Shown piece by piece: positions 26,155 to 60,577 of a stretch of 64,000 bases of DNA (position 1 is the first letter of the stretch; each line of letters begins with the position of its first letter). The notes under the pieces are model-generated. The model saw nothing but the letters and a program-made list of their open reading frames with translations. It was not told the origin of the DNA and did not search any database. The position numbers were made by a program, and so were the translations under genes. This DNA comes from Terriglobia bacterium (GTDB taxonomy: Bacteria > Acidobacteriota > Terriglobia > Versatilivoradales > Versatilivoraceae): positions 20,692 through 84,691 of the forward strand of contig JAXLQK010000019.1 of assembly GCA_046331665.1 (NCBI GenBank), written 5' to 3'.

Positions 26155-26586
26155 TCATTTCCGTTTTTCCCTAAATAGCTCACGAAGGACTTCCCCAGTT
26201 CCTTGGGTCAGATCCAGACTGTCGAGAGAGTCGATGTCAAAGTACGCCGCCTCAGCAGCATCCGAAGCTGGACGGGGGGTACCTGATTGGATTTCGCAAA
26301 GGTAGTCGATAATGACATAGTGAAAGGAGATCTTCCCGCGGGAATCCCGAAAGATGCGCTCCAAAACCTTGCCCACCCGGATGGGGCAAATTTGGATTTG
26401 CAATTCCTCCCTGAGCTCCCGTTTAACAGCCTCTTCCAGCGTTTCACCCAAGTCAACGGCACCACCTGGAATCGACCATTTCCCTTGAGCAGGCGGCTTA
26501 CCGCGTTTTACGAGCAGCACTTGATTTCCTTTGAATATGATTCCTCCCACCGCACAAACGGGAGCACGTGGATAGACTCGACTCAT
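26155..26586 (-). CDS. NUDIX hydrolase
   Basis: Nudix box GGAVDLGETLEEAVKRELREELQI. Confidence 0.85.
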   Translation of the reverse strand: MSRVYPRAPVCAVGGIIFKGNQVLLVKRGKPPAQGKWSIPGGAVDLGETLEEAVKRELREELQIQICPIRVGKVLERIFRDSRGKISFHYVIIDYLCEIQSGTPRPASDAAEAAYFDIDSLDSLDLTQGTGEVLRELFREKRK

Positions 26587-26756
26587 CGTTCCCTCGATTC
26601 GTATCAGCTTCGTTCCTCTGGTTCGGATCCATGAACCCCTCGACTCTGATGATCCTCATCTTTTTTTGTGACAAAAGATTTTTCTATCTTCGCATGTTTG
26701 CCGTTCAGTTCGCTTATAATTTCCGGAAGGAGAATTCTCAACTTGAGGGAGTGCGG

Positions 26757-27431
26757 ATGGGGAAATCATATCGACGGTCAGGCTTGACGAAGAAGCAGTT
26801 TCAACTCTTCTCTTTCGTTCAGTCCTTTCTCGAGGAGGAAGGATATTGCCCGAGTATCGAAGAAATTGGAAAAAGCCTCGGACTCTCCTCGACGGCCACC
26901 GTTCATAAACATCTCAGTAACCTGGAAGCCAAAGGGTATCTCCGTCGTGAACGAAATCGGAGCCGATCGATTGAGATCCTGCAGGCTCTGCCCAGCCCTC
27001 CGACCAGGGACCTCCCAGGAAGGCGGGAACTCACCCCCGATGGCCGGCAGATGTTGTCCCTCCCCCTGAAGGGCCGAATTGCCGCTGGAAAGCCGTTAGA
27101 GGCTGTCTCCGGCGATGAAACCCTCTCCCTAAGTGAGTTCTCCGAAAATGAAAGGGTTTATGTGTTGCAGGTGAAAGGCAACTCCATGGTCGATGATCAT
27201 ATTTGTAATGGCGACTATGTGGTTGTTGAAAGAGTTTCGACAGCCAATCCGGGTGATACGGTGGTGGCACTGTTAGGTAACCATGAGGCCACTCTCAAGA
27301 AATATTTTCGTGAGAAAGGCAGTCTTGTTCGGCTGCAGCCAGCCAATACGTCGATGCAGCCGCTTTTCGTTCCGGAGCAAGAGGTGAAAATACAGGGGCG
27401 TGTCATCGCGGTCTTACGAAAGTATCAGTGA
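26757..27431 (+). CDS. lexA: LexA repressor (S24 peptidase)
   Basis: Winged HTH (FQLFSFVQSFLEEEGYCPSIEEIGKSLGLSSTATVHKHL). The cleavage and catalytic region is VKGNSM...GDTVVALLGNHEATLKKY. The ORF-track start at 26568 is an out-of-context extension. ATG 26757 has GAGGGA 6 nt upstream. Confidence 0.85.
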   Translation: MGKSYRRSGLTKKQFQLFSFVQSFLEEEGYCPSIEEIGKSLGLSSTATVHKHLSNLEAKGYLRRERNRSRSIEILQALPSPPTRDLPGRRELTPDGRQMLSLPLKGRIAAGKPLEAVSGDETLSLSEFSENERVYVLQVKGNSMVDDHICNGDYVVVERVSTANPGDTVVALLGNHEATLKKYFREKGSLVRLQPANTSMQPLFVPEQEVKIQGRVIAVLRKYQ

Positions 27432-27454
27432 CGAGACGGAAGAGAGGCTTTAGG

Positions 27455-28630
27455 ATGGAGGAAGGAATCCGCAAAGTCATTTTTCATGTGGATATGGATG
27501 CGTTTTTTGTTTCCGTTGAAGAGCTCTTTGACCCTGGCTTAAAAGGAAAAGCGGTCATTGTCGGTGGGAAGCCGGATCAGAGAGGGGTGGTTTCTGCCGC
27601 CTCCTATGAAGCCCGGAAATTTGGGATTCATTCCGCCATGCCTTTAGTGACTGCGAAGCGACTCTGTCCTCACGCAATTTTTCTCCCGGGGCGGCATAAG
27701 ACATACGCGCAATATTCGGAGTGGATCCGTCACCTCCTGGAATCTTACAGCCCGATTGTGGAAATGGTCTCCATTGATGAGGCCTACTTGGACCTCACCG
27801 GATTCCAGCGCACTTACGGTCATCCCCAAGCCTTGGCCGAACGTTTGCGAAATCATTTGCTGGGTGAGACCGGGCTCAGCGCCTCGGTGGGGATATCGGC
27901 AAGCAAACTTGTCTCGAAAGTGGCTTCGGATTTGGCTAAACCCAAGGGAGTCCTTTACGTTCTTCCGGGTCATGAGGCAGCCTTCCTGGGGTCCCTGGGT
28001 GTCGGGAAATTACCGGGAGTAGGAAAGGTGACTCAGCAAAGACTCCGCGAACTGGGGATCTCACGGGTTGGGCAACTGGCGGAAATGGGGACAAACTCCC
28101 TTCGAGAGTTATTTGGAAGGTGGGGAGAGTCTCTCTATCAGAAATCCCAAGGAATGGATACGGCCCATTTCGAGTTTCGTAATGAACCCCAGTCGATCGG
28201 CCACGAACACACCTTTGACCGGGACACAGGAGATTCCGAGGAGATCCAGAAAACGATCGCCATCTTAGTCGACAAATGCTGCCATCGTTTGCGGAAACAT
28301 CGAATGTTTGCCAAAACGGTGAGGTTAAAAATACGTGATCAGAAATTCTATACCCAAGTAAAAGCCCTAACCTTGCAGGAATCGACACAGCTGGATGTAG
28401 AAATCCTGCATGGCGCCTTGACGCTTCTCGAACGGCATTGGAAGCAGGGCACCAAACTTCGCTTGGTGGGGGTTTCCTTGTCAGGACTCGATTTCAATGC
28501 AGGTCAAGAAGCGCTTTTTTCCCAAGACCGTCGAGACAAGATGCTGCGGCTCCATCAGGCAGCCGATCGGGTGCGAAAGCGCTACGGGTTCGAAGCAATC
28601 CACTCCGCCCGAACATCGAAAGAACGGTAA
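27455..28630 (+). CDS. dinB: DNA polymerase IV (Y-family, DinB)
   Basis: IFHVDMDAFFVSVE...SIDEAYLDLT is the Y-family palm. The little-finger domain is present. ATG 27455 has a GAGAGG RBS and lies 23 nt after the lexA stop. Confidence 0.85.
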   Translation: MEEGIRKVIFHVDMDAFFVSVEELFDPGLKGKAVIVGGKPDQRGVVSAASYEARKFGIHSAMPLVTAKRLCPHAIFLPGRHKTYAQYSEWIRHLLESYSPIVEMVSIDEAYLDLTGFQRTYGHPQALAERLRNHLLGETGLSASVGISASKLVSKVASDLAKPKGVLYVLPGHEAAFLGSLGVGKLPGVGKVTQQRLRELGISRVGQLAEMGTNSLRELFGRWGESLYQKSQGMDTAHFEFRNEPQSIGHEHTFDRDTGDSEEIQKTIAILVDKCCHRLRKHRMFAKTVRLKIRDQKFYTQVKALTLQESTQLDVEILHGALTLLERHWKQGTKLRLVGVSLSGLDFNAGQEALFSQDRRDKMLRLHQAADRVRKRYGFEAIHSARTSKER

Positions 28631-28631
28631 G

Positions 28632-30017
28632 ATGAAAAGAACCGCCATTGAAATCGTCAGGAAGCTCCGTCAGGCAGGTTTCCAGGCCTACTGGGTAGGC
28701 GGGTGCGTTCGCGATTTGGTGATGGGCCACTCCCCCACCGACTACGATATTGCCACGAGCGCAACCCCCGAGGAGCTATTTCATTTGTTCCCGCGAGGAC
28801 TGGCCGTGGGAGCCCAATTCGGGGTGGTCATCATCCCCGAAGAAGGGAATCTCTATGAAGTTGCCACGTTTCGCTCCGAAGAGAAATACACCGACGGACG
28901 ACACCCCGATCGTGTGCGGTATACGCTTGATCCGCGCGAGGACGTGCAGCGAAGGGATTTCACCATCAACGGTCTCCTTTATGATCCCTTGGAGGAAGAG
29001 GTCATTGACTATGTCGGGGGGCAGTCAGACATCCACTCGCGCATCATTCGAACCATTGGAGATCCTTGGCGCCGGTTTGAAGAAGACCGGCTCCGCTTGA
29101 TTCGGGCCGTGCGTTTCGCTGCTCGTTTTGACTACCAAATTGAGACCAATACCTGGCAGGCCCTGTCTGAACTTGCCCCGAATATCGAGCAAGTTAGCCC
29201 GGAAAGAATTCGTGATGAACTGATCAAGATTTTGACTCAGGGCTATGCGGCACGAGGCATGACTCTCTTGGACTCTTGCGGTCTACTGCGCATCATCCTC
29301 CCGGAAATAACCCATTTGCATGGAGTGGAGCAGCCACCGGAATTTCACCCCGAGGGCGATGTTTGGATCCATACGATCCTGATGCTCGGATTGATGGATC
29401 AGCGGACTCTTGAAGGAAGAAGGGAGCCCAGCTCGGACTCTCTGGAGGAATCGGGACCGAACCCGCCCTCTTCTTTGAGTTCTTATCCGTCCCCCACTTT
29501 GGCCCTGGGCGTATTGCTCCATGACATTGGTAAGCCGGAAACGTTTGAGCGCTCGGATCGCATTCGCTTTAACAACCATCCCGAAGTAGGCTCCCGCATG
29601 GCCGTGGGGATCTGCGAACGCCTCCGCTTTCCCACCAGGCAGGTCGCAAGGATCTCTGAACTCGTTCGGGATCATCTCAGATTCAAAGATGTCCCCCAGA
29701 TGAAACTGTCAACCCTGAAACGCTTCTTACGAAGGGACGGGTTTGCCGAACATCTGGAATTGCATCGCTTGGACTGCCTGTCCAGCCATCGCAATCTGGC
29801 AACCTGGCAGTTCCTTACAGAAAAAATGAACGAGATGGGACCCGAGGAAACCCGGCCCAAACCTCTTCTTTCTGGTAATGATCTGATACGGCTTGGATTC
29901 CTCCCGGGGCCTAGGTTCAAGGAGATTCTTAAATCGGTTGAGGACGCCCAGTTGGATAATGTGGTGAGCTCCGAGGAAGAAGCGACAAAATTTGTCCTCG
30001 AGCACTTTTCTAGGTAG
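28632..30017 (+). CDS. cca: CCA-adding tRNA nucleotidyltransferase (Pol-beta NTase head plus HD domain)
   Basis: GGCVRDLVMG...DYDIAT head motif and an HD domain (HDIGKP...). ATG 28632 is 1 nt after the dinB TAA. The ORF-track N-terminal extension from 28497 overlaps dinB and is rejected. Confidence 0.8.
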   Translation: MKRTAIEIVRKLRQAGFQAYWVGGCVRDLVMGHSPTDYDIATSATPEELFHLFPRGLAVGAQFGVVIIPEEGNLYEVATFRSEEKYTDGRHPDRVRYTLDPREDVQRRDFTINGLLYDPLEEEVIDYVGGQSDIHSRIIRTIGDPWRRFEEDRLRLIRAVRFAARFDYQIETNTWQALSELAPNIEQVSPERIRDELIKILTQGYAARGMTLLDSCGLLRIILPEITHLHGVEQPPEFHPEGDVWIHTILMLGLMDQRTLEGRREPSSDSLEESGPNPPSSLSSYPSPTLALGVLLHDIGKPETFERSDRIRFNNHPEVGSRMAVGICERLRFPTRQVARISELVRDHLRFKDVPQMKLSTLKRFLRRDGFAEHLELHRLDCLSSHRNLATWQFLTEKMNEMGPEETRPKPLLSGNDLIRLGFLPGPRFKEILKSVEDAQLDNVVSSEEEATKFVLEHFSR

Positions 30018-31023: not shown

Positions 31024-32838
31024 TCAGAAAAGTCGTTTCCCGCAGTGATGGCAGAACTGACTGTTGGAATCCAGACTGGTTCCGCAGGTTTGGCAATAGG
31101 TTTCAATGTTTCTATTGGGCTCAGATTTGCGCTCGGGTTTGCTTCGCCGACGGACGAACTCAACGAACTCGCGAGCCTGGGTGTGGTTTGGATTGACCTG
31201 CAGGACCTCGCGAGCCGCCATCAGCGCCTCTGAAAATTTTCCTTCCTGATAAAAAGAGACGGCCGTACGCATAAGAGTCGCCGCCTCGACCTCAAAACTC
31301 TTCATCGCCTTCAAGTCACCCAAGCGCCGCGAGGTATTTTCAACGAACGCCTGAATTTCGGGATTGTGCGGGAATAATACCCGAATACGATCCAGCTCTT
31401 GCGAGCACAAATCATATTGTTCCTGATAGAGATACTTCTTAATTTGCGCAATCGAGACGGCTTTGATCTCGGAATTGTAAATTTCCGCCGAACGCTGCTC
31501 GAGTTTGCGGTCAATGATTTCCTGCGGAGGCATTTCCCGGGCTGATGTGATGCTGTCAAAAACTTTCACACCTGGGAGGCGGACAACAGGCGGTGGAATC
31601 TCAGATGAAGACGGTAGGGGATCAGAGGGCATTTCAAGAATTTCAGGAGACGGAATGATATCCTTGGTTGAACTTCTCTCACTTCCAACCTCTTGGTGAG
31701 GAGAAGCCTGTTTCGGGCTTAGGGTAATCGGTGTTGTCAAAATGACTTCTTTAGGGAGATCCTTCGAAACCTGTTGCAAAGGCGGCCGCAAGGACACTGG
31801 AGTCGGGGAAAGGGGGGGGTGACTGACGGGGACATTTTCAGGTGCAGGCTTGTGAAGAGGAATCGCCTCCTTGTTACCCTTCGTCAAAGGCTCTTGTACC
31901 CCGGAGGGAACCTGACTGGGAGGCGCCTGCACAGCCTGGGTCGGCGTCTCCTCGTGCAGGAACAACCGTGGTGGAGGAGAGGTCTCGGCGACGGGATCAA
32001 AAAGATCGGACAGAGATTCTGGGAGAAAGTCCACACGAAGGCTCGACTTCGCCTCGGCAGGAACTGCCATGGGTAATCCGTCATGCTGCTGATTCTCTGC
32101 CGATTCAGGTTCAATTTCAGGAGTGGCCTTGACGGCAGTTTCTAAACTCCCCTCTCCTGTCTCCTCGACGGGAACGAATGGCACAGGTTCGGGCAGAGAG
32201 ACGGTATTCACCTCGGCCGCCCGATCGAGAGCGGTATTTCCACGCTGCAAACTCTTCCATTCTCCGACATCCTTGCTACGATCCCGCAGAAGTTCCACCA
32301 TGGCCGCAATTGTTTGTTCTCGCATGGAGCCTGGCATTGTTGTCAGGGAAGTTTCGGCTGATCTTCTGGGTCGCGACGCTGGGGGAAGTGGTCTGGATCG
32401 GGAGAAGGAGGCGGGGGATTTCTCCTGCCTCCGTAGTGGCGTGACTCGATTTCGTTCAGGACCAGAACCGGCGGCTTCTCTTTTGCCTGAGGGAGAGACT
32501 TGCTGAGGCCCGCTCGGAAGAGGGTCTGAGGAGAGTGAAGCGGATGGCGGCTCCGCCGTAAGCCTTGGGTCCACCATTTTCTTGTAGAGCTTCCGTTTGG
32601 CCAGTTTGATCGACGTCAGCTCAAGCAGCGCCTTTGCTTTCGTGTTGTGGGGATCGGCCGCCAGAACTTCCAGAATGGCTTGCTCACAGAGGCTGTACTC
32701 GTGGAGGCTGAAAAGTCGTCGGGCGTCCACAAGTTTACGTTCGACTTCACTGGCGTCGTCGCCAGTTCTAATAGGAACCACATTCCCGGAGAAATCGGGA
32801 TTGCTATTTTGGGAATCGCTGGACATAAGGCGATTCAT
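31024..32838 (-). CDS. Hypothetical protein: TPR-like ends, about 350 aa of proline-rich disordered core, C-terminal double zinc ribbon
   Basis: The C-terminus is CQTCGTSLDSNSQFCHHCGKRLF. The middle third is extreme low-complexity P/S/E/V sequence. TPR-like helices occur at both ends. Confidence 0.6.
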   Translation of the reverse strand: MNRLMSSDSQNSNPDFSGNVVPIRTGDDASEVERKLVDARRLFSLHEYSLCEQAILEVLAADPHNTKAKALLELTSIKLAKRKLYKKMVDPRLTAEPPSASLSSDPLPSGPQQVSPSGKREAAGSGPERNRVTPLRRQEKSPASFSRSRPLPPASRPRRSAETSLTTMPGSMREQTIAAMVELLRDRSKDVGEWKSLQRGNTALDRAAEVNTVSLPEPVPFVPVEETGEGSLETAVKATPEIEPESAENQQHDGLPMAVPAEAKSSLRVDFLPESLSDLFDPVAETSPPPRLFLHEETPTQAVQAPPSQVPSGVQEPLTKGNKEAIPLHKPAPENVPVSHPPLSPTPVSLRPPLQQVSKDLPKEVILTTPITLSPKQASPHQEVGSERSSTKDIIPSPEILEMPSDPLPSSSEIPPPVVRLPGVKVFDSITSAREMPPQEIIDRKLEQRSAEIYNSEIKAVSIAQIKKYLYQEQYDLCSQELDRIRVLFPHNPEIQAFVENTSRRLGDLKAMKSFEVEAATLMRTAVSFYQEGKFSEALMAAREVLQVNPNHTQAREFVEFVRRRSKPERKSEPNRNIETYCQTCGTSLDSNSQFCHHCGKRLF

Positions 32839-38220: not shown

Positions 38221-38745
38221 CTAAGGGTGCGGGGGGGAGTCTTCGTCTTGGGAATTCTGCTTGAGAATCCGTTCCACGATTTGGGAGGTTGAGAATCCTG
38301 TCTCATAGGGCAGGGCAATGACTTTTCCTCCGCTCTCCTCCACTTCTTTTCGCCCAACGATTTCGTGAAGTCCCCAATCCCCGCCCTTGACAAGTACGTC
38401 GGGGAGAATGGTACGGATTAGGTCGAGCGGAGTGTTCTCATCGAAGATGGTGATGAAGCTGACGCTTTCTAATCCGGACAACACGATGGCACGCTCTAAT
38501 TCGGAAAGGATGGGTCGAGTTGGCCCTTTGATTTCCCTTATGGATCGGTCACTGTTCAGGCCGACAATAAGCACATCGCCCAATTGGCGAGCCGCTCTCA
38601 GATAATGAATGTGTCCCGGGTGGATTAAATCAAAGCAACCGTTGGTGAAGACAACTTTCCGGCCCTCGCTCTTTAGGGTCTGGACCTGTTCCTTCAACTC
38701 TGTCAAGCTTAACAGCTTCTCCAATCCGCCTCCTTGCTTTGCCAT
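38221..38745 (-). CDS. D-glycero-beta-D-manno-heptose-1-phosphate adenylyltransferase (RfaE/HldE domain II type cytidylyltransferase, stand-alone)
   Basis: VVFTNGCFDLIHPGHIHYLRAARQLGDVLIVGLNSD...LVKGGDW matches the HldE C-domain over its whole length. I prefer start ATG 38745 (MAKQGG...). The ORF-track upstream extension to 39144 has no domain and overlaps the divergent gene start. Confidence 0.75.
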   Translation of the reverse strand: MAKQGGGLEKLLSLTELKEQVQTLKSEGRKVVFTNGCFDLIHPGHIHYLRAARQLGDVLIVGLNSDRSIREIKGPTRPILSELERAIVLSGLESVSFITIFDENTPLDLIRTILPDVLVKGGDWGLHEIVGRKEVEESGGKVIALPYETGFSTSQIVERILKQNSQDEDSPPHP

Positions 38746-38934
38746 TTCTTTACGCAGTAGAAAGTACGACCACCTGTTCCGCGGGGGATTATAGCACGTG
38801 CTGGAGTGGCCGGGTCGAGCTGGCGCCGAAACTTCCCAATCGGTTGACTTCAGCCTCGGCAGCCTCGATATAATCGAGCGCAGGGTTATTTCGGCGAGGG
38901 GAGCGATAGACGCAACAGCCGCTCCTCGAAAGGG

Positions 38935-40581
38935 TTGCTCCATGAAGGACGGGAGATATCCATGACCACGGGTCGCACTGATTTCATTTGCCTGATAGCC
39001 GCTTTGGGAATTCTCCTTGCGCTGGAGTTGGCCAGTCGACATCTGGCCAAAGATCTGGAAATCATCGAAACGGCCCTCCCCAACGCACCGCGAACTCCCA
39101 TTGTGATCATTCAGAAACGGCCTGGTGCAAATGCTCCCAACCAACCAGGGGCAGGGGCTAACGTCAAACTGTTATTGATTCACGGGCTGTCGGCGAGCAA
39201 ATCAACCATGATGCAAATGGGAATGGCTCTCGCACAATCTGGCGCGGAATGTTATCTGATCGACCTTCCCGGTCATGGCGCCTCCACCGGGAAATTCTCC
39301 TGGCCAGCAGGCCTGGATGCTGTCGCAGCGGCTTCGCGCTGGATTCTCGCCGAGCGCAACCCTGATTCAATTGGATCATCAAGGCACGGTTTCTTCCTCA
39401 TCGGTCACTCTCTCGGAGGGGGGATCGTCATTAAATCAGCTCAACTCAATTCACAGGTGACAGGAGTTGTTGCCTTGTCTCCCACGGCTGTTCCTGTGAC
39501 GTTAAACTCTCCAAACCACATGTTGATCCTGGTCGGGGAAAACGATTTTCCTTTTGTCAAACGCAGCGCCGCCTTTTTGTTTGAGAGCACGACATCCCAA
39601 ACCATTCACCCGTCATCCTCCATCACCCGATGGGAAAACCAGGAAAAAACCCAACGCCTCGTCTTCCTTCCCCTTACGGAGCATTCGGGAAGTCTATTCC
39701 AAGCCAAGGTCTACGGGGAGATCGAGCATTGGATCAACCAAACGCTCCAGCCTTCGGCCATCGGCCTGCGCCCCTCTGTTGCATCGGGAAAACAAGTTGT
39801 TATCAATGGATTACTTTGTCTTTCGGCACTGATGTCTTGGTTTCCCGCGTTTTCCCTGTTGGCAAAGTGGAAACCCACCAACACAGATCAAAGAGTAGAA
39901 TCTGGTTCAGCTCCTTGGCACGGCAATGCGATAGGCACTCATTGCCTCACGGGCTTTCAGATTTATCGAGCCTACGCCCTTTTCTCCTTTCTCGCGCTCC
40001 TCATCCTGCGATGGCATGATCCTTGGAATTACCTGCATTTGATGGGAGGCGGGTTTCTCACGGGATTTCTTTCGCTGACGGGTTTATTTCTTTTCCTATG
40101 GCGAAGGCCCTCCAGGAAGATCATGCGCTTTAACATCATGCCTCTTCTTACTGCGGTCGCGGGGGTCGTCTTGCTTTTACTCTATCCGTTTCCGTTGCTC
40201 ACGCAACACTTCGTCTTCCTGCAATGCACCCCAATCCGAAGTTGGAATTTCCTTTTGATTGCCATCAGCCTGATGCCGTTTTTCGTATGGGAGGAGTGGA
40301 TATTTCGACAAGGATTGGCCCTTCCAGGAAACTGGCAGAGAGCCGTTCACTTTGTCTCGACACGACTTATCCTGGCTTTCACTCTGATGATTGGATTTTT
40401 GTTCTTGAACAACTCTCAGTTTCTAATACTCTTATTGCTTCCGGGACTTGCGCTCTTAAGCCTGCTCGTTTGGCTGGGTTCTGGGTGGGTATTTTTCAAA
40501 ACAGGCAGTAGCGTGGCCTCGGCGCTTTTTGGTAGTTTATTGACTGGCCTGATCTTCAGCGCGTTCTTTACCCGGGTATAA
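38935..40581 (+). CDS. Fusion protein: N-terminal alpha/beta-hydrolase domain plus C-terminal CPBP (CAAX-protease/Abi-like) intramembrane domain
   Basis: N-terminal TM anchor, then HGLSASKS...GHSLGGG (a nucleophile elbow). At least eight TM helices follow, carrying WEEWIFRQG (the EExxxR CPBP motif 1) and downstream FxxxH/HxxxN-like residues. Confidence 0.7.
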   Translation: MLHEGREISMTTGRTDFICLIAALGILLALELASRHLAKDLEIIETALPNAPRTPIVIIQKRPGANAPNQPGAGANVKLLLIHGLSASKSTMMQMGMALAQSGAECYLIDLPGHGASTGKFSWPAGLDAVAAASRWILAERNPDSIGSSRHGFFLIGHSLGGGIVIKSAQLNSQVTGVVALSPTAVPVTLNSPNHMLILVGENDFPFVKRSAAFLFESTTSQTIHPSSSITRWENQEKTQRLVFLPLTEHSGSLFQAKVYGEIEHWINQTLQPSAIGLRPSVASGKQVVINGLLCLSALMSWFPAFSLLAKWKPTNTDQRVESGSAPWHGNAIGTHCLTGFQIYRAYALFSFLALLILRWHDPWNYLHLMGGGFLTGFLSLTGLFLFLWRRPSRKIMRFNIMPLLTAVAGVVLLLLYPFPLLTQHFVFLQCTPIRSWNFLLIAISLMPFFVWEEWIFRQGLALPGNWQRAVHFVSTRLILAFTLMIGFLFLNNSQFLILLLLPGLALLSLLVWLGSGWVFFKTGSSVASALFGSLLTGLIFSAFFTRV

Positions 40582-40604
40582 TTTAGGGCAGGGACACACT
40601 CGAC

Positions 40605-41756
40605 ATGATGAGAGTTGCCGTCATTGGGGCAGGTCCGGGGGGAGCCTATTGCGCCTCGCTCCTAGCCGGCAAAGGGTTTGGAGTTTCCTTGTTTGACTTC
40701 CATGCCGCATGGGAAAAACCCTGTGGCGGTGGCGTCACGTTTAAGGCCATTCAGAGATACCCGTTTTTGCGGCAAGCACTACAACCCCACCGCGCGATTC
40801 AGGCGATCGAAGTTCTATCCCCGTCTGACCAACGCGTCACGATTCCCTTAACTTCGCCTCTTTCCATCTACTCTCGCAACGTCCTCAATCAGATTATTCT
40901 CGATCAGGCGGTTTCTCAAGGAGTGAATTTTCATCAAGAACGCGTGTTGACCTTTTCCAAACACGGATCACAGTGGCAGATCCAAACCGATCGAGCCGCT
41001 TATGAGGTCGATTACCTGGTCGGAGCGGACGGGGTCAACAGCTTCGTACGAAAACGTCTGGGAAAAAAGTTTGAAGCCGAAGACCTGATGATGACGTTTG
41101 GATACCGTTTGCCCGGGGTTATGGATGATCGCATCATAATCAAATTCTACCCGAAATTTCACGGTTACCTCTGGGCGTTTCCGCGCCCAGAACATGTTTC
41201 CCTCGGGATTTGCGCCCGACTGCATCGCTATGGGATGAAGGAGCTCAAAACGCACTTGCATGAGTTCATGAGAAAATCATTCACTTCCAAGGATTTTCAA
41301 GCGGAAGAAGGGACGATTTACAGTTCTCTCATCCCTTCTCTGCGCCCAGAGTCCCTCAGGGAGAACCGCATCTGTGGAGAGGGCTGGGCATTGGTTGGCG
41401 ATGCCGCCGGTTTCTGTGACCCGATTACCTGCGAGGGCATTTATTTTGCGCTCCGTTCCGGAGAATTATTGGCGGAAACCCTCGCTGAAGGAGACAAACA
41501 ACTCTACGTGCGGTCTTGCAGTCAAGAATTCGTGGGTGACTTCATTTGCGGCGCAAACCTGTTTGAGAAATTTTACGCAGGCCAAATCATGGGCCGGGAT
41601 TTCATTACGCGGATGGTGCAATGGAGCCGGAAAAGCAAAATCCTTTGCGCCACGATGAATGCTTTTGTCGCCGGAAAGCAAAACTATCGGACTTTGAAAT
41701 ACTCCCTGCTTCGAAAGTCCCCTTTGATACTGCTCGAGTTGCTCCTTGGAACCTGA
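40605..41756 (+). CDS. Geranylgeranyl reductase family FAD-dependent oxidoreductase
   Basis: The Rossmann motif is VAVIGAGPGGAYCA. The GDAAGFCDPITCEGIYFA block is typical of ChlP/GGR-like reductases. It lies 24 nt downstream of the hydrolase-CPBP gene. Confidence 0.7.
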   Translation: MMRVAVIGAGPGGAYCASLLAGKGFGVSLFDFHAAWEKPCGGGVTFKAIQRYPFLRQALQPHRAIQAIEVLSPSDQRVTIPLTSPLSIYSRNVLNQIILDQAVSQGVNFHQERVLTFSKHGSQWQIQTDRAAYEVDYLVGADGVNSFVRKRLGKKFEAEDLMMTFGYRLPGVMDDRIIIKFYPKFHGYLWAFPRPEHVSLGICARLHRYGMKELKTHLHEFMRKSFTSKDFQAEEGTIYSSLIPSLRPESLRENRICGEGWALVGDAAGFCDPITCEGIYFALRSGELLAETLAEGDKQLYVRSCSQEFVGDFICGANLFEKFYAGQIMGRDFITRMVQWSRKSKILCATMNAFVAGKQNYRTLKYSLLRKSPLILLELLLGT

Positions 41757-41816
41757 CTCCAACGAGCGATGACCTTCTGGGATCTTGCTACAGCCGGAAG
41801 AACAGCCTGTGGCCCG

Positions 41817-42716
41817 TCAGCCCGCCGAAGAGCGTTTCGCCTTCTGAAGCCCCACGGAACGCATGATAAAATAATCAAATATTCTCTCAGGCAGGAATCG
41901 CTTCATCGCAAGGAAGAGATGGGCATGGCCGGGTGCCGCATAACGGAAGCGGGGCTTTTCATCTTTGAAGGCACGGAGGATAAGCGTGGCGATCTGATCG
42001 GGGCGGCCTGCGATGCTTCGGGCACGCTGTCGCGTTAGTGAAAGGTCTGAAAAATAAGGAGCGTAGGGTCCTGCACGATCAAGGATCGGCCGGGAGATTC
42101 GATCCGAGGCTTCCAGGAATTCCGTGAGAATAAATCCGGGTTCAATCAGGATTACCTGAATTCCAAAGATCGAAAGTTCACCGCGCAGCCCGTCAGTAAT
42201 GGCTTCCAAAGCGTGCTTCGTCGCATCGTAAATCGAGGAGAGAGGGCGGGCAATTTTCCCCGCTACGGAGCCGACATGGACAATTCTGCCCGTCCCTTGT
42301 TTCCGCATCGTGGGAATGACAGCCTGAGTCAAGGCGATTAAGGAAAACAAGTTGGTTTCGAAGTTCTGACGAATCGCTTCGACAGGTACCAGCTCAACAG
42401 GACCCCGGTGTCCGTACCCGGCGTTATTGACAAGACCATCAATTCTCCCGAAAGTTTGTAACGTCGTAGCAATAATTCGCTCACGATCCTGGGGGAGTGT
42501 AATATCGGCCGGAATAATAACCGACTTGCCGGCAGATGTTTGCAAGACGGGATCGCCGGTTTTCTCCAGGTCCGCCTTGAGGGAGAGGAGACGCTCCTGA
42601 CGTCGCGCAACCAGTGCCAAAGAGGCCCCTTCTCGTGCCAATAGCCTGGCAGTCGCTTCACCAATCCCGGAGGAGGCACCGGTAATGATAATGGCCTTCC
42701 CCTGAATCACGCCCAT
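41817..42716 (-). CDS. Short-chain dehydrogenase/reductase (SDR)
   Basis: TGASSGIG cofactor motif and a YxxxK active site (YDATKHAL). Confidence 0.85.
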   Translation of the reverse strand: MGVIQGKAIIITGASSGIGEATARLLAREGASLALVARRQERLLSLKADLEKTGDPVLQTSAGKSVIIPADITLPQDRERIIATTLQTFGRIDGLVNNAGYGHRGPVELVPVEAIRQNFETNLFSLIALTQAVIPTMRKQGTGRIVHVGSVAGKIARPLSSIYDATKHALEAITDGLRGELSIFGIQVILIEPGFILTEFLEASDRISRPILDRAGPYAPYFSDLSLTRQRARSIAGRPDQIATLILRAFKDEKPRFRYAAPGHAHLFLAMKRFLPERIFDYFIMRSVGLQKAKRSSAG

Positions 42717-42962: not shown

Positions 42963-44132
42963 ATGTACAAAATCAGCCTGGAACTTCTTGCTTCAGTCAG
43001 GTGGTTGAGAAAATTCGAGCCGCGTGATAGGTTTGCCTGGGACTGCGAGTTAGAAAGGAAATTTCAGCGCCTGGAAGGTTCATTCATGAAGAAAGCGGGA
43101 CAGTATGGGATCAGCCTGGGACTTACCGCTCTCATCGGCTATCTCGTTTACAGGGGGGTGCCAGACTGGCATTATGCCTGGCACGTGATGATTCAGGGGA
43201 ACCCCCTCTGGCTTTTAAGCGGTCTTTTTTTTGTAATCCTGCACATGACTTTGAGAGCCCTCCGCTGGGGGATCCTGCTTTCCCCAGTCAAACATCGGAT
43301 TGCTTTCAGGAATCTTTTTTCTCTGACCCTGATCAAATATGTCGTAAATGCGGTTCCTCCACGAGCCGGCGAGGTCGCAGCTTCCATCCTCCTGGCACGG
43401 AAAGAAAAAATCTCAGTGGCTTCGGTGATTGCCGCCTCGCTTTTGGAACGCATACTGGATATGGTCACGGTCATCGTCATTTTCGGATATTACCTGATCT
43501 TTTATGCTTCCCGATTTATGCCAAACTCAAATCGTGGACGGGAGATCATGACGATGATCCAGAAGTACTCCCTCAAAGGGATGCTGGTTCTTGGTCTTCT
43601 CTTTGGCGTGTTGGCCTTCCTATTATGGAAGGACCGCTGGCTGAGTCAGCTCCCCGTTCGGGCTCAAGATCTTCTTCGCTCATTCCTGGGGGGGTTCAAG
43701 GGACTTCAGAAGGGCACCGTGGTCCTGAAATCCGCGATACTTTCCCTGGCAATTTGGATTTCAATCACCTTGCAACTGTGGTCGATGCTCCAGGCTTATG
43801 TGGATGTCTTTCCATTTGCAGGCGCTCTTTTTCTGATGTCTATCACGGTGGTGGGCGTGGCTATCCCGACCCCAGGCGGTGTCGGGGGATTTCAATTCTT
43901 CATGAATTTGGGGCTCATTAACTTCTTTGCTCAATACCTCGCCACCTCGGACCCTGTCTCGCAAGCGGCCGGCATCAGCAATGGATGTTATCTGGCCTCG
44001 ATGGTGCCTGTCATGCTCCTTGGCTTGTATTTTCTCAATCGAGAAGGGCTGTCTTTCGGCCGGATTTCCAAGCTCGACGCAGAGCAAAAACCCCGGGAGT
44101 TGGAGAAATTGGGTTCCACGCCTGAGTTGTGA
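42963..44132 (+). CDS. Flippase-like / lysylphosphatidylglycerol-synthase-TM-domain (UPF0104) family membrane protein
   Basis: Multi-TM protein with the conserved RWGILL and NAVPPRAGEVAASILLARKEKIS blocks of the LPG_synthase_TM family. The start may be ATG 43086. Confidence 0.6.
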   Translation: MYKISLELLASVRWLRKFEPRDRFAWDCELERKFQRLEGSFMKKAGQYGISLGLTALIGYLVYRGVPDWHYAWHVMIQGNPLWLLSGLFFVILHMTLRALRWGILLSPVKHRIAFRNLFSLTLIKYVVNAVPPRAGEVAASILLARKEKISVASVIAASLLERILDMVTVIVIFGYYLIFYASRFMPNSNRGREIMTMIQKYSLKGMLVLGLLFGVLAFLLWKDRWLSQLPVRAQDLLRSFLGGFKGLQKGTVVLKSAILSLAIWISITLQLWSMLQAYVDVFPFAGALFLMSITVVGVAIPTPGGVGGFQFFMNLGLINFFAQYLATSDPVSQAAGISNGCYLASMVPVMLLGLYFLNREGLSFGRISKLDAEQKPRELEKLGSTPEL

Positions 44133-47006: not shown

Positions 47007-47708
47007 CTAGTAGAAGTAAATCTTCCGACGAAGTTGGTTCCTGCTGCGCCAGATCATGGCAATTCCAGCGACAAATCCCCCGATGTGCGCCCACCATGCC
47101 GTTCCTCCCATCTGCCCTTTGGAAGCAACCAAGGAGAGCGCTCCGCTGAAAAACTGCATCACAAACCAAAAGCCGATAAAGAGTAGCGCGGGAATTTCGA
47201 CAAGTTGAAAAAAGAAGAAAATGGGGAACAACGTCAAGACTCTGGCTCCCGGGAATAGGATGAGATAAGCCCCGAGTACTCCGGCAATGGCTCCGCTCGC
47301 TCCCACGGTGGGAACCGTCGATCCGGAATTTGTCAAAACATGGAACAGGGTCGCGGCCAGACCGCAGAAGAGGTAGAAAAAAAGATAGCGAAAGTGGCCG
47401 AGACGATCTTCCACATTGTCTCCAAACACCCACAAGTAGAGCATGTTGCCTAGGAAATGAAGCCACCCGCCATGGAGAAACATCGACGAAAACAGCGGAA
47501 GAATTCCGAGAAGAATTCCTTGGTGTGACCAGTATTTCGGGCTGAGAAAGAGGGCCGGAACCACTCCAAAATCATAGATGAAACGGTTCAAGAGATCCCT
47601 CTGGCCAAGGGACAACTCGAAGACAAATACAAGCCCATTGAGAATGATCAAAAAAACGGTGACGAGGGGATAGCTTTCAGAGCGGTTAATGTCTTTGAGG
47701 GGAATCAT
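47007..47708 (-). CDS. Rhomboid-family intramembrane serine protease
   Basis: Six or seven TM helices. GASGAIAGVLGAY (GxSG) is present, and a catalytic His lies in a later TM. Confidence 0.85.
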   Translation of the reverse strand: MIPLKDINRSESYPLVTVFLIILNGLVFVFELSLGQRDLLNRFIYDFGVVPALFLSPKYWSHQGILLGILPLFSSMFLHGGWLHFLGNMLYLWVFGDNVEDRLGHFRYLFFYLFCGLAATLFHVLTNSGSTVPTVGASGAIAGVLGAYLILFPGARVLTLFPIFFFFQLVEIPALLFIGFWFVMQFFSGALSLVASKGQMGGTAWWAHIGGFVAGIAMIWRSRNQLRRKIYFY

Positions 47709-47793: not shown

Positions 47794-48447
47794 TCAGTAT
47801 ACGGGATCGAAAAATGTCCCGCGGAGTTGCAAGGGTTGTACATCAGGGTAAATGGTGGGAACAAAGGGGAATCTCAAAAGGGAAGATTCCGTTTTCGAGG
47901 AGCGGGGTTCATCCAAATCGGTTCGCTTGATGTTAAAGGAGCGCTTATTCCAATTTCCATTGACCTTGAAAGAAATATGAATGGATTCCCATTCGACTTC
48001 CTTCGGCCGCTCGATGATGTCGCTTTTACCAGAGGGAGGTGAGAAGTAAACGGTCTTGCTCACGGTCTGTCCAGGTTCAATGGTAATTGGGGCAAAACGA
48101 GAGATGACCGATTGCGGCGACTTCAAATCTCCCGCCGGGAAGAACGTACGTTGAAAGGCCTGCGGCCTTAAACGCAGAAAGGGCGTCTGAGCGAGACCCT
48201 TTAAGAGAGAGGCCTCAATATCGAGCACTGCAGCCCGAACCCGACCCGGGTTGTGAAAGGTCAGATCAAGAACCAACGCAGACTCCTGCGGATTGACGCA
48301 GGAAACGGCGGGAGAATACACCACAAGTTTATAGGGAGAAACACGAACCATCCAAAGGGTATAGATCGAGAACCCAAAGGCGAGGATCGAAAGCAAGATG
48401 GCAATCAGATTGGCTAAAAGAATCATGGATGAACCGATGGATATCAT
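47794..48447 (-). CDS. Hypothetical membrane-anchored protein
   Basis: An N-terminal TM helix (LLANLIAILLSILAFGFSIY) is followed by a roughly 180-aa beta-rich domain with no motif I recognise. Confidence 0.45.
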   Translation of the reverse strand: MISIGSSMILLANLIAILLSILAFGFSIYTLWMVRVSPYKLVVYSPAVSCVNPQESALVLDLTFHNPGRVRAAVLDIEASLLKGLAQTPFLRLRPQAFQRTFFPAGDLKSPQSVISRFAPITIEPGQTVSKTVYFSPPSGKSDIIERPKEVEWESIHISFKVNGNWNKRSFNIKRTDLDEPRSSKTESSLLRFPFVPTIYPDVQPLQLRGTFFDPVY

Positions 48448-58865: not shown

Positions 58866-58868
58866 TGT

Positions 58869-59726
58869 TTAAAGAAGCTTGTCGATTCCCAGAGCCACCA
58901 ACAATAGCAGGCTGATATAACCGTTCACCGTGAAAAACGCGGCATTGACGCGGGATAAATCATCCGGTCGAACCAGACGATGTTCGTACACCAACAGCGC
59001 CGCAACGATCCCAATCCCCAACAAGCTAATCCAGCCGAGAGCTTCCAGATGGAGGAGAAACAAGAGGAGCAGCAGCATGAAAGCGTGAAGACCGGTTGAG
59101 ATCGACAAGGCGGCTTTTACTCCGAAACGCTTTGGCACCGAATACAAATTACGTCCACGATCAAATTCCGTATCCTGACAGGCATAAATAATATCGAATC
59201 CTGCCGTCCACAAAGTCACAATCAGGCAGAGCAACAAGGGTGTCAGACTGATCTCTCCTCGAATGGCAATCCAGGCCCCCATGGGAGCCATTCCCAGACA
59301 AAAACCAAGGACAAGATGGGAGTAGTTGGTAAATCGTTTTGTATAGGAATAAAAGAAAAGGATCAAAAGAACCGGGACCGACAGCCAAAAACACAAACGG
59401 TTAAGCCGGGAAGCAGCCAGCATAAAAAGGAGGCTCATTGCAACCGTGAAGGCAATGGCAAAGGCCCTGCTTAGTAAGCCGGCCGGTAGGGCGCGGTTTC
59501 GGGTTCTGGGATTGGCTGCATCAATTTTCCAATCTGCAATTCGATTGAAAGTCATGGCTGCACTGCGCGCCCCCACCATGGCCATCACAATCCATCCCAA
59601 TTTGGGAAAGGGCGGTAAGCCGTTTGCAGCCAGAATGGCGCTAAGCAGTGCGAACGGCAACGCAAAAAGCGTGTGCTCAAACTTAATCATCTCCAGCGTA
59701 GTCTTGAGAGGATTGAAGAAGAACAT
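58869..59726 (-). CDS. ubiA: UbiA-family aromatic prenyltransferase (4-hydroxybenzoate polyprenyltransferase-like)
   Basis: Eight or nine TM helices. Asp-rich motif [21 protein letters not shown]. Confidence 0.75.
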
Positions 59727-59833
59727 AGGCTTTATTTGAGCTCCCTTGAGCCAGCCCGCTTACCTGATGCCGGCCACCCAACGCACCATCCTATTCTTTC
59801 ACCATGACTGGCCCGTATGCGGCGCGGGTGAAA

Positions 59834-60442
59834 TCAATCAGCATTTCTTGCGCTTCCTTCCCAGCGGAACGCTTTTTTTGGATTCAATCCCAAGTGCTGC
59901 ATCACGCGATAAAGGAATTGATCCACCGCCTCTTCCAAGGCAGACGGGTGATGATAAAAAGAGGGTACGGCGGGAAACACAATCGCTCCGGCAAGAGTCA
60001 CCATTTTCATATTCTCAAGATGGATTAAATTCAACGGGGTGTCGCGCGTCACCAGCAATAGCTTCCGACGTTCCTTGAGCATCACGTCGGCTGCACGTTG
60101 AATCAAGTCTCGTGAAATGCCATGGGCGATACTTCCCAGTGTCCCCATACTGCACGGAATAATCACCATCGCGTCTACCGGATTTGACCCGCTGGCGATC
60201 CTGGCGCCAACATCGCTATTATTGAGCGGCACGATTTTCGAGTTGTTTCCCCCCGCGAGTTTTTCAGTCAAGGAATGGAGATTCCCTGGACCGATATTTA
60301 GTTCTTCCTGCAAAACCCGTGCTCCGGCCGAGGAAATAACCAGAAAGATCCGCCGGATCTCTGGTTCCTCCAAAAGCAGTTTCAGGAGACGTGACGCGTA
60401 GATCGCTCCGCTTGCGCCAGTGATTCCAATCGTGATTTCCAA
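59834..60442 (-). CDS. ubiX: Flavin prenyltransferase UbiX
   Basis: ITIGITGASGAIYASRLL at the N-terminus and overall UbiX/Pad1 similarity. Confidence 0.85.
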   Translation of the reverse strand: MEITIGITGASGAIYASRLLKLLLEEPEIRRIFLVISSAGARVLQEELNIGPGNLHSLTEKLAGGNNSKIVPLNNSDVGARIASGSNPVDAMVIIPCSMGTLGSIAHGISRDLIQRAADVMLKERRKLLLVTRDTPLNLIHLENMKMVTLAGAIVFPAVPSFYHHPSALEEAVDQFLYRVMQHLGLNPKKAFRWEGSARNAD

Positions 60443-60577
60443 GATTATTAATCCGCCTTTGCAGTTAGAAGGCTGCCCAAACCTTAGGATAATATACCAA
60501 AACGATGGGCCCCGACAGCTACCGCGTCAAAATGGCTGGACAAGAGCAGGCGATGAGGCAAGAATTGGGAGTTCATT

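What the first reader, a model, noticed from the sequence alone, without database searches (positions are those of the whole stretch)
38935..41756. Alpha/beta-hydrolase fused to a CPBP intramembrane protease, co-oriented with a geranylgeranyl reductase
A single 548-aa ORF combines a membrane-anchored serine-hydrolase domain (GHSLGGG) with a CPBP/Abi-type polytopic domain carrying EEWIFRQ. CPBP proteins act on prenylated CAAX proteins in eukaryotes. In bacteria they are linked to bacteriocin immunity, or their role is unknown. The next gene, 24 nt downstream, is a geranylgeranyl (isoprenoid-chain) reductase. One reading is a lipid- or isoprenoid-tail processing pair. The hydrolase-CPBP fusion is not a common architecture.
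Basis: partly seen in the sequence, partly recalled or inferred. Interest (0 to 1): 0.55.

Follow-up and report, generated by a model that had tools for sequence, protein, structure and literature searches.

The report
Serine hydrolase fused to degenerate CPBP-like domain
An uncultured soil acidobacterium encodes one membrane protein that joins an intact, probably periplasmic serine esterase to an eight-helix domain with the fold of a CAAX/CPBP protease but without its catalytic histidines, which looks like a fused version of the enzyme-plus-CPBP-scaffold pairs known from Staphylococcus; its substrate is unknown.

Summary
The ORF is real. The likely start is ATG 38962 (539 aa), not TTG 38935. 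It is not a frameshift artefact: about 400 clusters at 50% identity carry the C-terminal domain, and nearly all of the longer listed hits have it at the C-terminus of 450-590 aa proteins. In a 93-member set, 82 had alpha/beta-hydrolase Pfam hits.

The N-terminal half is a lid-less alpha/beta serine hydrolase with a fully conserved Ser150/Asp195/His241 triad.

The "CPBP" call is only partly right:
- Pfam PF02517 hits 0 of 93 members.
- No histidine is conserved anywhere in the membrane domain, so CPBP motifs 2 and 3 are absent.
- The Arg of EExxxR is present in only 29 of 93 members.
- hhalign puts EEWIFR on a canonical EELLFR, but weakly.

The geranylgeranyl-reductase-family gene lies directly downstream in 11 of 14 lineages. 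The wider block (surA-mfd-rfaE) is conserved as well, and the reductase is inferred to be cytoplasmic while the hydrolase is predicted to be periplasmic.

Best reading: a covalent version of the SagB-SpdC / LnsA-LnsB type, in which a non-proteolytic CPBP-like domain presents a membrane lipid substrate to the esterase. This is a new variant of a known kind, of moderate interest.

The parts
38962..40581 (+). Whole gene: 539-aa fusion protein. Order: N-terminal TM anchor, alpha/beta serine hydrolase, linker TM helix, 7-TM CPBP-like bundle. The stop codon is included.
   Evidence: ORF. ATG with GGGAG upstream. 100% identical to the 539-aa NCBI protein P0001. AF2 full-length model has pLDDT 84.8 and pTM 0.86.
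38935..38961 (+). Nine extra codons of the mechanically longest ORF (TTG start), probably not translated.
   Evidence: homologues and the NCBI annotation start at the ATG.
38968..39045 (+). TM helix 1 (residues 3-28), a signal-anchor predicted N-in.
   Evidence: AF2 helix 3-28. Hydropathy. Family-wide K+R bias.
39049..39747 (+). Lid-less alpha/beta-hydrolase domain (residues about 30-262), predicted periplasmic. Key residues: HG oxyanion motif H74-G75, nucleophile S150 in GHSLG (39409-39411), D195 (39544-39546), H241 (39682-39684).
39778..40578 (+). C-terminal polytopic domain (residues 273-539, 8 TM helices). It has a CPBP/Rce1-like fold but a degenerate active site. Pfam has no model for it.
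40291..40308 (+). EEWIFR (residues 444-449), the only CPBP signature motif present. E445 is almost invariant in the family; the Arg is not.
   Evidence: [E/D]444 in 91/93, E445 in 90/93, R449 in 29/93 with Gly in 55/93. hhalign aligns it to EELLFR of a canonical CPBP.
40363..40365 (+). R468 (STRLIL), a near-invariant arginine in the helix after the EE motif.
   Evidence: 89/93. Aligns to a Lys of the canonical CPBP.
40605..41756 (+). Geranylgeranyl-reductase-family FAD protein (383 aa), 23 nt downstream. A probable operon partner in most lineages, inferred to be cytoplasmic.
   Evidence: TIGR02032 E 1.3e-41, 143 bits, below the 158.8 cut-off. PF01494. TaGGR 3oz2 E 1.6e-6. Downstream in 11/14 lineages.
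38221..38745 (-). Divergently transcribed heptose-1-phosphate adenylyltransferase (RfaE/HldE domain II). The most constant neighbour of the fusion gene.
   Evidence: TIGR02199 196.5 bits against a cut-off of 181.5. Present upstream in every locus with enough flank except the most distant homologue, L018.

Best explanation
The gene encodes a single-chain version of a 'CPBP scaffold plus extracytoplasmic enzyme' machine.

Shown:
- An intact Ser-Asp-His alpha/beta hydrolase without a lid.
- A C-terminal helical bundle with the CPBP/Rce1 fold that has lost the two histidines and the asparagine needed for CPBP catalysis. It keeps one near-invariant glutamate (E445) and one near-invariant arginine (R468).
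- The two parts are fused in essentially the whole family.

Inferred:
- TM1 anchors the protein N-in.
- The esterase domain sits on the periplasmic face of the CPBP-like bundle.
- The bundle does not cut peptides. It acts as a substrate chaperone, admitting the hydrophobic tail of a membrane lipid or lipid-linked molecule through a lateral opening and presenting its ester-linked head group to Ser150 at a fixed height above the membrane.
- The membrane domain takes the place of the missing lid.

The substrate class I consider most likely is an acyl ester on a membrane lipid, with the enzyme acting as a lipase, lysophospholipase or acyltransferase. A polyprenyl-linked envelope intermediate is the second choice. 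The reductase downstream is probably co-transcribed in most lineages, but a shared substrate is not established.
For: - Fusion conserved: 60 full-length homologues and 404 clusters with the C-domain, nearly all of the longer listed hits placing it at the C-terminus of 450-590 aa proteins. Of 93 scanned members, 82 carry alpha/beta-hydrolase Pfam domains.
- Triad and oxyanion residues are 100% conserved.
- Motif register: EEWIFR aligns to EELLFR, G478 to the Gly of FGxxH, and KTGS to KTGS (E 2e-4). A 93-sequence profile gives the same register.
- No conserved His in the domain.
- Positive-inside counts over 79 full-length members: predicted cytoplasmic loops sum to about 13 K+R and periplasmic loops to about 4. 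The orientation of the EE helix matches that of a canonical CPBP read from its sequence.
- pTM of 0.86 for the whole chain suggests a defined inter-domain arrangement.
- Precedents: SpdC is a non-catalytic scaffold for the single-TM glucosaminidase SagB, nine TM helices in all, and is proposed to bind the prenyl tail (bioRxiv 10.1101/2020.05.21.109470). LnsA caps the CPBP LnsB on the outer membrane face, LnsB's CPBP motifs are dispensable, and the substrate is the sn-1 acyl chain of phosphatidylglycerol (PMC13559823).
Against: - The sequence-level link to CPBP is weak: hhalign probability is 46% with the 17-sequence profile and 7% (P 0.005) with the 93-sequence profile. Foldseek gives E 1.5. 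HMMER finds nothing.
- I could not read model coordinates or PAE, so the docking of the esterase on the bundle, and the distance from Ser150 to any lateral gate, are not verified.
- E445 and R468 lie toward the cytoplasmic half of the membrane in the crude topology, far from a periplasmic active site. Their strong conservation hints at a function of the bundle that the scaffold model does not explain.
- No substrate evidence of any kind exists. All members come from uncultured organisms.
Confidence: 0.5

Rival explanations
1. Isoprenoid-tail processing pair. The CPBP-like cavity binds a prenyl or polyprenyl chain, the esterase removes a group from that lipid, and the adjacent GGR-family enzyme saturates the chain.
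For: - The GGR-family gene lies immediately downstream, on the same strand, with gaps of 3-80 nt, in 11 of 14 lineages, including homologues only 25% identical.
- Rce1 and SpdC are thought to accommodate prenyl chains.
- GGR signatures (PCGGG, YLWAFP) are visible in the sequence (the motif definitions are from memory).
Against: - The same loci also keep surA-mfd-rfaE, so gene order here persists without shared function.
- Three lineages carry M16 peptidases or a CarboxypepD_reg protein downstream instead.
- The reductase is inferred to be cytoplasmic and the hydrolase is predicted to be periplasmic.
- No isoprenoid genes lie within about 16 kb on either side.
- The GGR score is below the family cut-off.
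Confidence: 0.15
2. Bifunctional enzyme. The CPBP-like domain is still catalytic, using E445 (with R468) in a histidine-independent mechanism. It would cleave a peptide or ester inside the membrane while the serine hydrolase performs a second step.
For: - E445 is conserved in 90/93 and R468 in 89/93, more than a pure scaffold would need.
- CPBPs can be esterases: DidK uses a D-E pair in place of E-E (PMC10811503).
Against: - In MmRce1 and DidK the two His and the Asn are conserved along with the acidic pair, and E140, E141 and H173 are required for MmRce1 activity. All three are absent here: no His column exceeds 26% in the domain.
- Most studied bacterial CPBPs with degenerate motifs are non-catalytic.
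Confidence: 0.15
3. No functional coupling. The polytopic domain is only an elaborate membrane anchor, and the protein is a generic periplasmic or membrane-surface esterase or lipase, comparable to single-pass anchored phospholipases.
For: - The hydrolase resembles generic carboxylesterases with no specific subfamily.
- The whole protein evolves fast, at 25-50% identity, while its neighbours stay at 39-77%.
Against: - An N-terminal TM helix already anchors the protein.
- Eight further helices with a specific fold and near-invariant polar residues (E445, R468, R426) kept across about 400 clusters argue for a function of their own.
Confidence: 0.18
4. Assembly or annotation artefact: two genes joined by a frameshift or a lost stop codon.
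For: None found.
Against: - The same continuous architecture occurs in dozens of independent contigs and MAGs.
- Eighty-two of 93 scanned family members carry the hydrolase domain.
Confidence: 0.01

Closest known systems
SagB-SpdC (LyrA) peptidoglycan release complex, Staphylococcus aureus (PDB 6U0O)
   Same: - It pairs a CPBP-fold eight-helix protein that does not need its protease residues with an extracytoplasmic hydrolase held by one N-terminal TM helix, nine TM helices in total, as here.
- The scaffold is proposed to bind the lipid tail of the substrate.
   Different: - There it is two separate proteins; here it is one chain.
- The partner is a GH73 glucosaminidase, not an alpha/beta serine hydrolase.
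- SpdC is recognisable as a CPBP by sequence (about 20% identity to Rce1), whereas this domain escapes PF02517.
- The host is a Gram-positive, not an acidobacterium.
LnsA-LnsB lipoprotein N-acylation system, S. aureus
   Same: - An extracellular acyl-ester-handling enzyme caps a CPBP protein whose signature motifs are dispensable.
- The substrate is a membrane glycerolipid acyl chain (PMC13559823).
- This is the closest functional analogy if the substrate here is a lipid ester.
   Different: - LnsA is an NlpC/P60-LRAT Cys/His enzyme, not a serine alpha/beta hydrolase.
- It is a two-protein, possibly multimeric, complex.
Rce1 / canonical CPBP (PF02517) glutamic intramembrane endopeptidases, including the esterase DidK
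   Same: - Motif 1 (EEWIFR against EExxxR).
- The same predicted orientation of the motif-1 helix.
   Different: - The catalytic H173, H227 and N231 equivalents are absent.
- The Arg of motif 1 is not conserved in the family.
- There is no HMM match.
- An extra linker helix precedes the bundle, and the eighth canonical helix is missing by my reading of the topology (inference).
APH-1 subunit of gamma-secretase
   Different: From memory, APH-1 kept the histidines and lost the glutamates, the opposite pattern to this family. It is eukaryotic and not fused to an enzyme.
Single-pass anchored periplasmic alpha/beta-hydrolase phospholipases (for example PlaF of Pseudomonas aeruginosa; from memory)
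   Same: An N-terminal TM helix followed by a periplasmic alpha/beta hydrolase that takes its substrate from the inner membrane.
   Different: These have no polytopic partner domain. The relationship was not tested here.

Membership tests
CPBP / Rce1-like (Pfam PF02517, type II CAAX endopeptidase family) | Match to the family HMM above the gathering score | tested here: not met
   No hit even at E<=10 on the C-terminal part. PF02517 hits 0 of 93 family members and none of the 90 database homologues. Positive control: every listed homologue of a canonical Bacteroides CPBP carries PF02517.
CPBP / Rce1-like | Motif 1, EExxxR | tested here: met
   EEWIFR at residues 444-449. Family-wide, [E/D]E is kept (91/93 and 90/93), but the Arg in only 29/93. 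hhalign aligns the motif to EELLFR.
CPBP / Rce1-like | Motif 2, FxxxH (MmRce1 H173) | tested here: not met
   The aligned position is F481, a variable hydrophobic column. Only the Gly of FGxxH is kept, as G/A478. A His occurs two residues later in 23/93 members, but not in this protein.
CPBP / Rce1-like | Motif 3, HxxxN/D (MmRce1 H227, N231) | tested here: not met
   No His column exceeds 26% anywhere in the domain. By extending the hhalign register by hand from KTGS, the expected positions fall on G524 and L/T.
CPBP / Rce1-like | Rce1-type helical bundle fold | tested here: met
   [not shown]
CPBP / Rce1-like | Intramembrane endopeptidase activity | not testable with these tools
   Needs biochemistry.
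Alpha/beta-hydrolase fold serine hydrolases (PF12697, PF12146, PF00561) | HMM match above the gathering score | tested here: met
   52.0, 51.6 and 41.3 bits against cut-offs of 26.3, 27 and 25.8.
Alpha/beta-hydrolase fold serine hydrolases | Nucleophile elbow GxSxG with an acid and a His completing the triad, plus the HG oxyanion motif | tested here: met
   GHSLG S150 in 82/82, D/E195 in 91/91, H241 in 91/91, H74-G75 in 76/76. The spatial proximity of the triad was not checked because no coordinates were available.
Alpha/beta-hydrolase fold serine hydrolases | Canonical fold | tested here: met
   [not shown]
Geranylgeranyl reductase family (TIGR02032), the neighbour gene | HMM match above the curated cut-off | tested here: not met
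   It is by far the best family (E 1.3e-41), but 143.2 bits falls below the 158.8 cut-off. PF22578 GGR_cat scores only 17 bits. TaGGR 3oz2 gives E 1.6e-6, while flavin halogenases score slightly better over the C-terminal part.
Geranylgeranyl reductase family | FAD Rossmann GxGxxG, a conserved Cys in PCGG, and the YxWxFP motif (definitions recalled from memory) | tested here: met
   VIGAGPGG, KPCGGGV and GYLWAFP are all present in the translation.
CPBP-scaffolded extracytoplasmic enzyme complexes (SagB-SpdC, LnsA-LnsB) | The CPBP-fold partner does not need its protease motifs | tested here: met
   Motifs 2 and 3 are lost in the whole family.
CPBP-scaffolded extracytoplasmic enzyme complexes | The enzyme lies on the outer face of the membrane and is docked on the CPBP | tested here: inconclusive
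   The positive-inside rule favours a periplasmic hydrolase. pTM 0.86 suggests a fixed arrangement. Coordinates and PAE could not be inspected.
CPBP-scaffolded extracytoplasmic enzyme complexes | A lipid or lipid-linked substrate delivered by the CPBP | not testable with these tools
   Needs biochemistry or a structure with bound lipid.

The most novel reading that the evidence does not exclude
The fusion is a natural 'Rosetta stone'. It would show that degenerate CPBP domains are dedicated lipid-substrate chaperones for extracytoplasmic hydrolases well beyond Firmicutes. In these Acidobacteriota the machine, together with the co-transcribed GGR-family reductase, would remodel a so far undescribed saturated-isoprenoid ester lipid or polyprenyl-linked envelope intermediate. 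The conserved E445/R468 site would take the lipid from the inner leaflet and pass it to the periplasmic esterase.
Probability: 0.1. Interest if true: 0.65.

Novelty: new variant of a known kind. Interest (0 to 1): 0.4.

Why it matters
Bacterial CPBP/CAAX-protease homologues are very numerous, and most have no known role. Recent work in Staphylococcus (SagB-SpdC, LnsA-LnsB, SpbR-SpsB) suggests that many are not proteases but membrane scaffolds or substrate chaperones for enzymes acting on the outer face of the membrane.

A family in which such a degenerate CPBP-like bundle is permanently fused to an intact serine esterase would be independent, evolutionary support for that idea. It would extend the idea to a diderm phylum. 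It would also offer a single-polypeptide model in which stoichiometry and geometry are fixed, which helps structural and biochemical work.

The family also marks about 270 residues of conserved membrane domain, in about 400 clusters at 50% identity, that current Pfam and NCBIfam models leave unannotated. Without a substrate this remains a hypothesis about an uncultured lineage, so the immediate impact is moderate.

Tried and rejected
- Pfam on the C-terminal part alone at E<=10 gave nothing.
- A profile search of PDB sequences with the C-domain gave 0 hits at E<=10.
- A word-indexed profile search at E<=10, looking for PF02517 proteins in the weak tail, returned only family members.
- Foldseek against afdb50 could not run because the library was unavailable.
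- Foldseek against PDB put Rce1 on top, but not significantly.
A six-sequence alignment found only 6 species-representative loci.
- A metagenome scan with the reductase gave 3 short contigs, too few for a reverse phylogenetic profile.
- I spent the last homologue search on a canonical Bacteroides CPBP to build a comparison profile. Only homologues of 69% identity or more were listed, so the template profile is shallow (Neff 1.9), which limits hhalign sensitivity.
- A regex search for canonical EExxxR...FxxxH...HxxxN proteins in the window and in the related loci fetched up to that point found none.
- The promoter and terminator scan was at chance level, with no terminator between the two genes.
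- Rfam gave no match in 38500-42200.
- I considered and rejected a frameshift artefact, a chlorophyll dephytylase/ChlP pair (one weak Chlorophyllase hit in 93 members, and no photosynthesis genes in the scanned part of the window), and an exosortase-associated hydrolase (TIGR03101 E 0.036 only).
Full report
**1. What is in the sequence**

The + strand carries one uninterrupted ORF from 38935 to 40581 (548 aa from a TTG). An ATG at 38962 is preceded by GGGAG about 8 nt upstream. It gives a 539-aa product that is 100% identical to an NCBI protein named "alpha/beta fold hydrolase" from a Terriglobia (Acidobacteriota) MAG. I take 38962 as the start; residue numbers below refer to the 539-aa protein.

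The next gene (40605-41756, + strand) starts 23 nt after the stop codon.

**2. The hydrolase half**

- Pfam places residues about 70-200 in the alpha/beta-hydrolase families: PF12697 at 52 bits, PF12146 at 51.6 and PF00561 at 41.3, all above their cut-offs.
- No NCBIfam equivalog comes near its cut-off.
- In a 93-member family alignment these residues are conserved without exception wherever the region is present: the oxyanion HG (76/76), the nucleophile Ser150 in GHSxG (82/82), an acid at position 195 (Asp 65, Glu 26 of 91) and His241 (91/91). The enzyme is therefore very probably active.
- The AF2 model of the full chain is confident (pLDDT 84.8, pTM 0.86).
- The closest solved sequence is a monoacylglycerol lipase (6qe2, E 2.7e-6).
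- Only 14 residues separate strand beta6 (168-172) from beta7 (187-192). The usual cap or lid insertion is therefore missing.

**3. The membrane half: is it a CPBP?**

Sequence-family evidence is negative:
- PF02517 gives no hit, even at E<=10 on the C-terminal part alone.
- It hits none of 93 family members and none of the 60 and 30 database homologues through their precomputed Pfam domains.
- A profile of the domain finds nothing in PDB sequences at E<=10.
- As a positive control, every listed homologue of a canonical Bacteroides CPBP carries PF02517.

Motif evidence is mixed. MmRce1 uses E140, E141, H173, H227 and N231, and the CPBP esterase DidK uses D203, E204, H237, H274 and N278 (PMC10811503). 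In this family:
- The acidic pair is kept ([E/D]444 in 91/93, E445 in 90/93).
- The Arg of EExxxR is present in only 29/93 members (Gly in 55).
- No column of the whole domain has more than 26% His.

Motifs 2 and 3 are therefore absent, whatever the alignment.

Fold evidence is positive:
- The next hit scored 7.2, and the CPBP-derived APH-1B ranked eighth.
- Foldseek also ranked Rce1 first, but without significance (E 1.5, TM 0.40).

Profile-profile comparison against an alignment of canonical CPBPs is weak but consistent:
- It aligned vWEEWIFRQ with vLEELLFRG, G478 with the Gly of FGxxH, and KTGS with KTGS, at E 2e-4 and probability 46%.
- With a broader 93-sequence query profile the register was the same, but the probability fell to 7% (P 0.005).

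My reading is that the domain is a highly diverged CPBP-fold bundle, with roughly 0.75 probability of true homology, that has lost the catalytic histidines and asparagine. Calling it an "intramembrane protease" is not justified.

**4. Topology**

- Hydropathy and the AF2 helices give one N-terminal TM helix (3-28) and eight helices in the C-terminal part.
- Over 79 full-length members, the loops predicted to be cytoplasmic hold on average 1.4, 3.3, 3.0, 3.3 and 2.0 Lys+Arg. The short loops predicted to be periplasmic hold 1.4, 2.2, 0.3 and 0.1.
- This supports an N-in arrangement with a periplasmic hydrolase domain.
- It also puts the EE helix in the same orientation, out to in with EE near the cytoplasmic end, that I read from the sequence of the canonical Bacteroides CPBP (inference).
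- Conserved residues on the predicted periplasmic side (P354, Y365 and the RxxR pair R426/R429 in most members) could line the interface with the hydrolase. This is an inference.
- E445 and R468 lie deeper, toward the cytoplasmic half of the membrane.

**5. Is the fusion real and how common is it?**

- An exhaustive profile search with the C-domain found 404 clusters at 50% identity with E<=1e-3, and 108 with E<=1e-30.
- Nearly all of the longer listed hits are 450-590 aa proteins with the domain at the C-terminus. The short ones look like contig fragments.
- Of 93 scanned members, 82 have hydrolase Pfam domains. A frameshift artefact is excluded.
- The family is narrow. Only six GTDB species representatives carry a close relative, and all are uncultured MAGs.

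**6. Neighbourhood**

- The downstream protein is best described as a member of the geranylgeranyl-reductase family. TIGR02032 gives E 1.3e-41 but 143 bits against a cut-off of 158.8, and TaGGR 3oz2 gives E 1.6e-6.
- The Rossmann GxGxxG, PCGGG and YLWAFP strings are all visible (the motif definitions are from memory).
- Across loci fetched through homologues, this gene lies directly downstream, on the same strand, with gaps of 3-80 nt, in 11 of 14 lineages. These include homologues only 25% identical to the query.
- Three lineages carry M16 peptidases or a CarboxypepD_reg protein there instead.
- The divergently transcribed RfaE domain II gene (TIGR02199, 196.5 bits, above its cut-off), followed by mfd and surA, is conserved upstream at least as well. 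It is present in every locus with enough flank except the most distant homologue.
- Gene order in this lineage therefore persists among functionally unrelated housekeeping genes, which weakens inference from adjacency.
- The scanned part of the window, about 16 kb on either side of the pair, is housekeeping: PBP1A, GT4, LexA-DinB, a CCA/poly(A) polymerase-family enzyme, Fpg, transaldolase, an FGGY kinase, a rhomboid, a 2-oxoacid dehydrogenase complex, Dus and GGT. It holds no isoprenoid pathway genes. Coordinates 1-22640 and 58866-64000 were not scanned.
- There is no Rfam element and no better-than-chance promoter or terminator signal.
- The reductase starts with its FAD-binding motif, so it is inferred to be cytoplasmic, while the hydrolase is predicted to be periplasmic. 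A direct hand-over of one molecule would need a flip across the membrane.

**7. Mechanism proposed**

The closest precedents are the staphylococcal CPBP partnerships.
- SpdC is an eight-helix CPBP-fold protein whose putative protease residues are dispensable. It scaffolds the single-TM glucosaminidase SagB, nine TM helices in all, and is proposed to bind the prenyl tail of nascent peptidoglycan so that cleavage occurs at a fixed distance (bioRxiv 10.1101/2020.05.21.109470).
- LnsA, an acyl-transferring enzyme, caps the CPBP LnsB on the outer membrane face. LnsB's CPBP motifs are dispensable, and the acyl donor is the sn-1 chain of phosphatidylglycerol. The authors note that most S. aureus CPBPs do not seem to act as proteases (PMC13559823).

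The acidobacterial protein has the same parts list: one anchor helix, one extracytoplasmic hydrolase, and a degenerate CPBP bundle, all in a single chain. I therefore propose that the bundle is a substrate chaperone and a substitute for the lid. It would deliver a membrane lipid or lipid-linked molecule to Ser150.

An acyl ester on a membrane lipid is the most likely substrate class, given the esterase/MGL-like fold. A polyprenyl-linked envelope intermediate is second.

- Shown: the intact triad, the lost CPBP histidines, the CPBP-like fold, and the conserved fusion.
- Inferred: the topology, the docking of the two domains, the chaperone role and the substrate class.
- Confidence: 0.5.

**8. 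Rivals**

- A still-catalytic, histidine-independent CPBP-like domain making the protein bifunctional (0.15). The very strong conservation of E445 and R468 is the main point in its favour, and the scaffold model does not explain it.
- A mere anchor with no coupling (0.18).
- An artefact (0.01).

**9. Novelty and score**

Each element belongs to a known kind: alpha/beta hydrolase, CPBP fold, non-catalytic CPBP scaffolds, GGR family. What appears new:
- The covalent fusion.
- The extreme divergence of the bundle, which no family model used here annotates.
- Its occurrence in a diderm phylum.

A literature search for CPBP, hydrolase and Acidobacteria found nothing relevant. I could not query InterPro architectures, so I cannot exclude that canonical CPBP-hydrolase fusions are already catalogued.

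I rate it a new variant of a known kind, with interest 0.4. It would be useful to the CPBP field as an evolutionary argument and a possible structural model. It has no substrate, no cultured host and no experiment.

Noticed in passing
window 31024-32838 (- strand): A 604-aa ORF whose only Pfam match is a 23-residue C-terminal zinc-ribbon (PF13240, E 4e-6). The other roughly 580 residues are unannotated.
   Followed up: no
window 47794-48447 (- strand), next to the rhomboid at 47007-47708: A 217-aa ORF with no Pfam hit at E<=1e-5 lies directly upstream of a rhomboid-family intramembrane protease on the same strand. This is a second intramembrane-protease-type gene in the window, unrelated to the finding.
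   Followed up: no
window 26568-28630 and 28497-30017: LexA (26568-27431) and a DinB/IMS polymerase (27428-28630) overlap by 4 nt, a compact SOS pair. The mechanical start of the next ORF, a poly(A)/CCA polymerase-family protein, overlaps dinB by 134 nt, so its true start is probably later.
   Followed up: no
L011-L014 (GTDB species representatives): Four MAG contigs titled 'uncultured Acidimicrobiia bacterium' are syntenic with this Terriglobia window. They share 50-79% identical Mfd, RfaE, GGR, SDR and LPG_synthase_TM proteins with it. The Acidimicrobiia label looks wrong or is a placeholder.
   Followed up: partly
window 38962-40581 against its neighbours, in L001-L016: The fusion protein diverges much faster (25-51% identity) than the genes around it in the same loci: GGR 39-72%, RfaE-II 53-77% and Mfd 48-74%. 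This fits an envelope-facing protein under relaxed or diversifying selection.
   Followed up: partly
family alignment A3, column of residue 483: In 23 of 93 family members a His sits two residues after the position that aligns with the CPBP motif-2 His (for example GVFILHN in P0041). It may be a relic of FxxxH. It is absent from the window protein, which has N483.
   Followed up: partly
window residues 364-365 and 429 of the fusion protein (about 40051-40056 and 40246-40248): The window protein and its closest relatives depart from strong family consensus at three positions on the predicted periplasmic side: G364 (family Asp 60/93), F365 (Tyr 86/93) and N429 (Arg 84/93).
   Followed up: no
window 41817-42716 (- strand) and 42963-44132 (+ strand): An SDR oxidoreductase convergent with the reductase stays next to the pair in closer relatives (L001, L002/L003, L011, L012, L014, L020). 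An LPG_synthase_TM / flippase-like membrane protein was found only in the closest ones (L001, L011, L012). Both could belong to a lipid-related neighbourhood, but this was not examined.
   Followed up: partly
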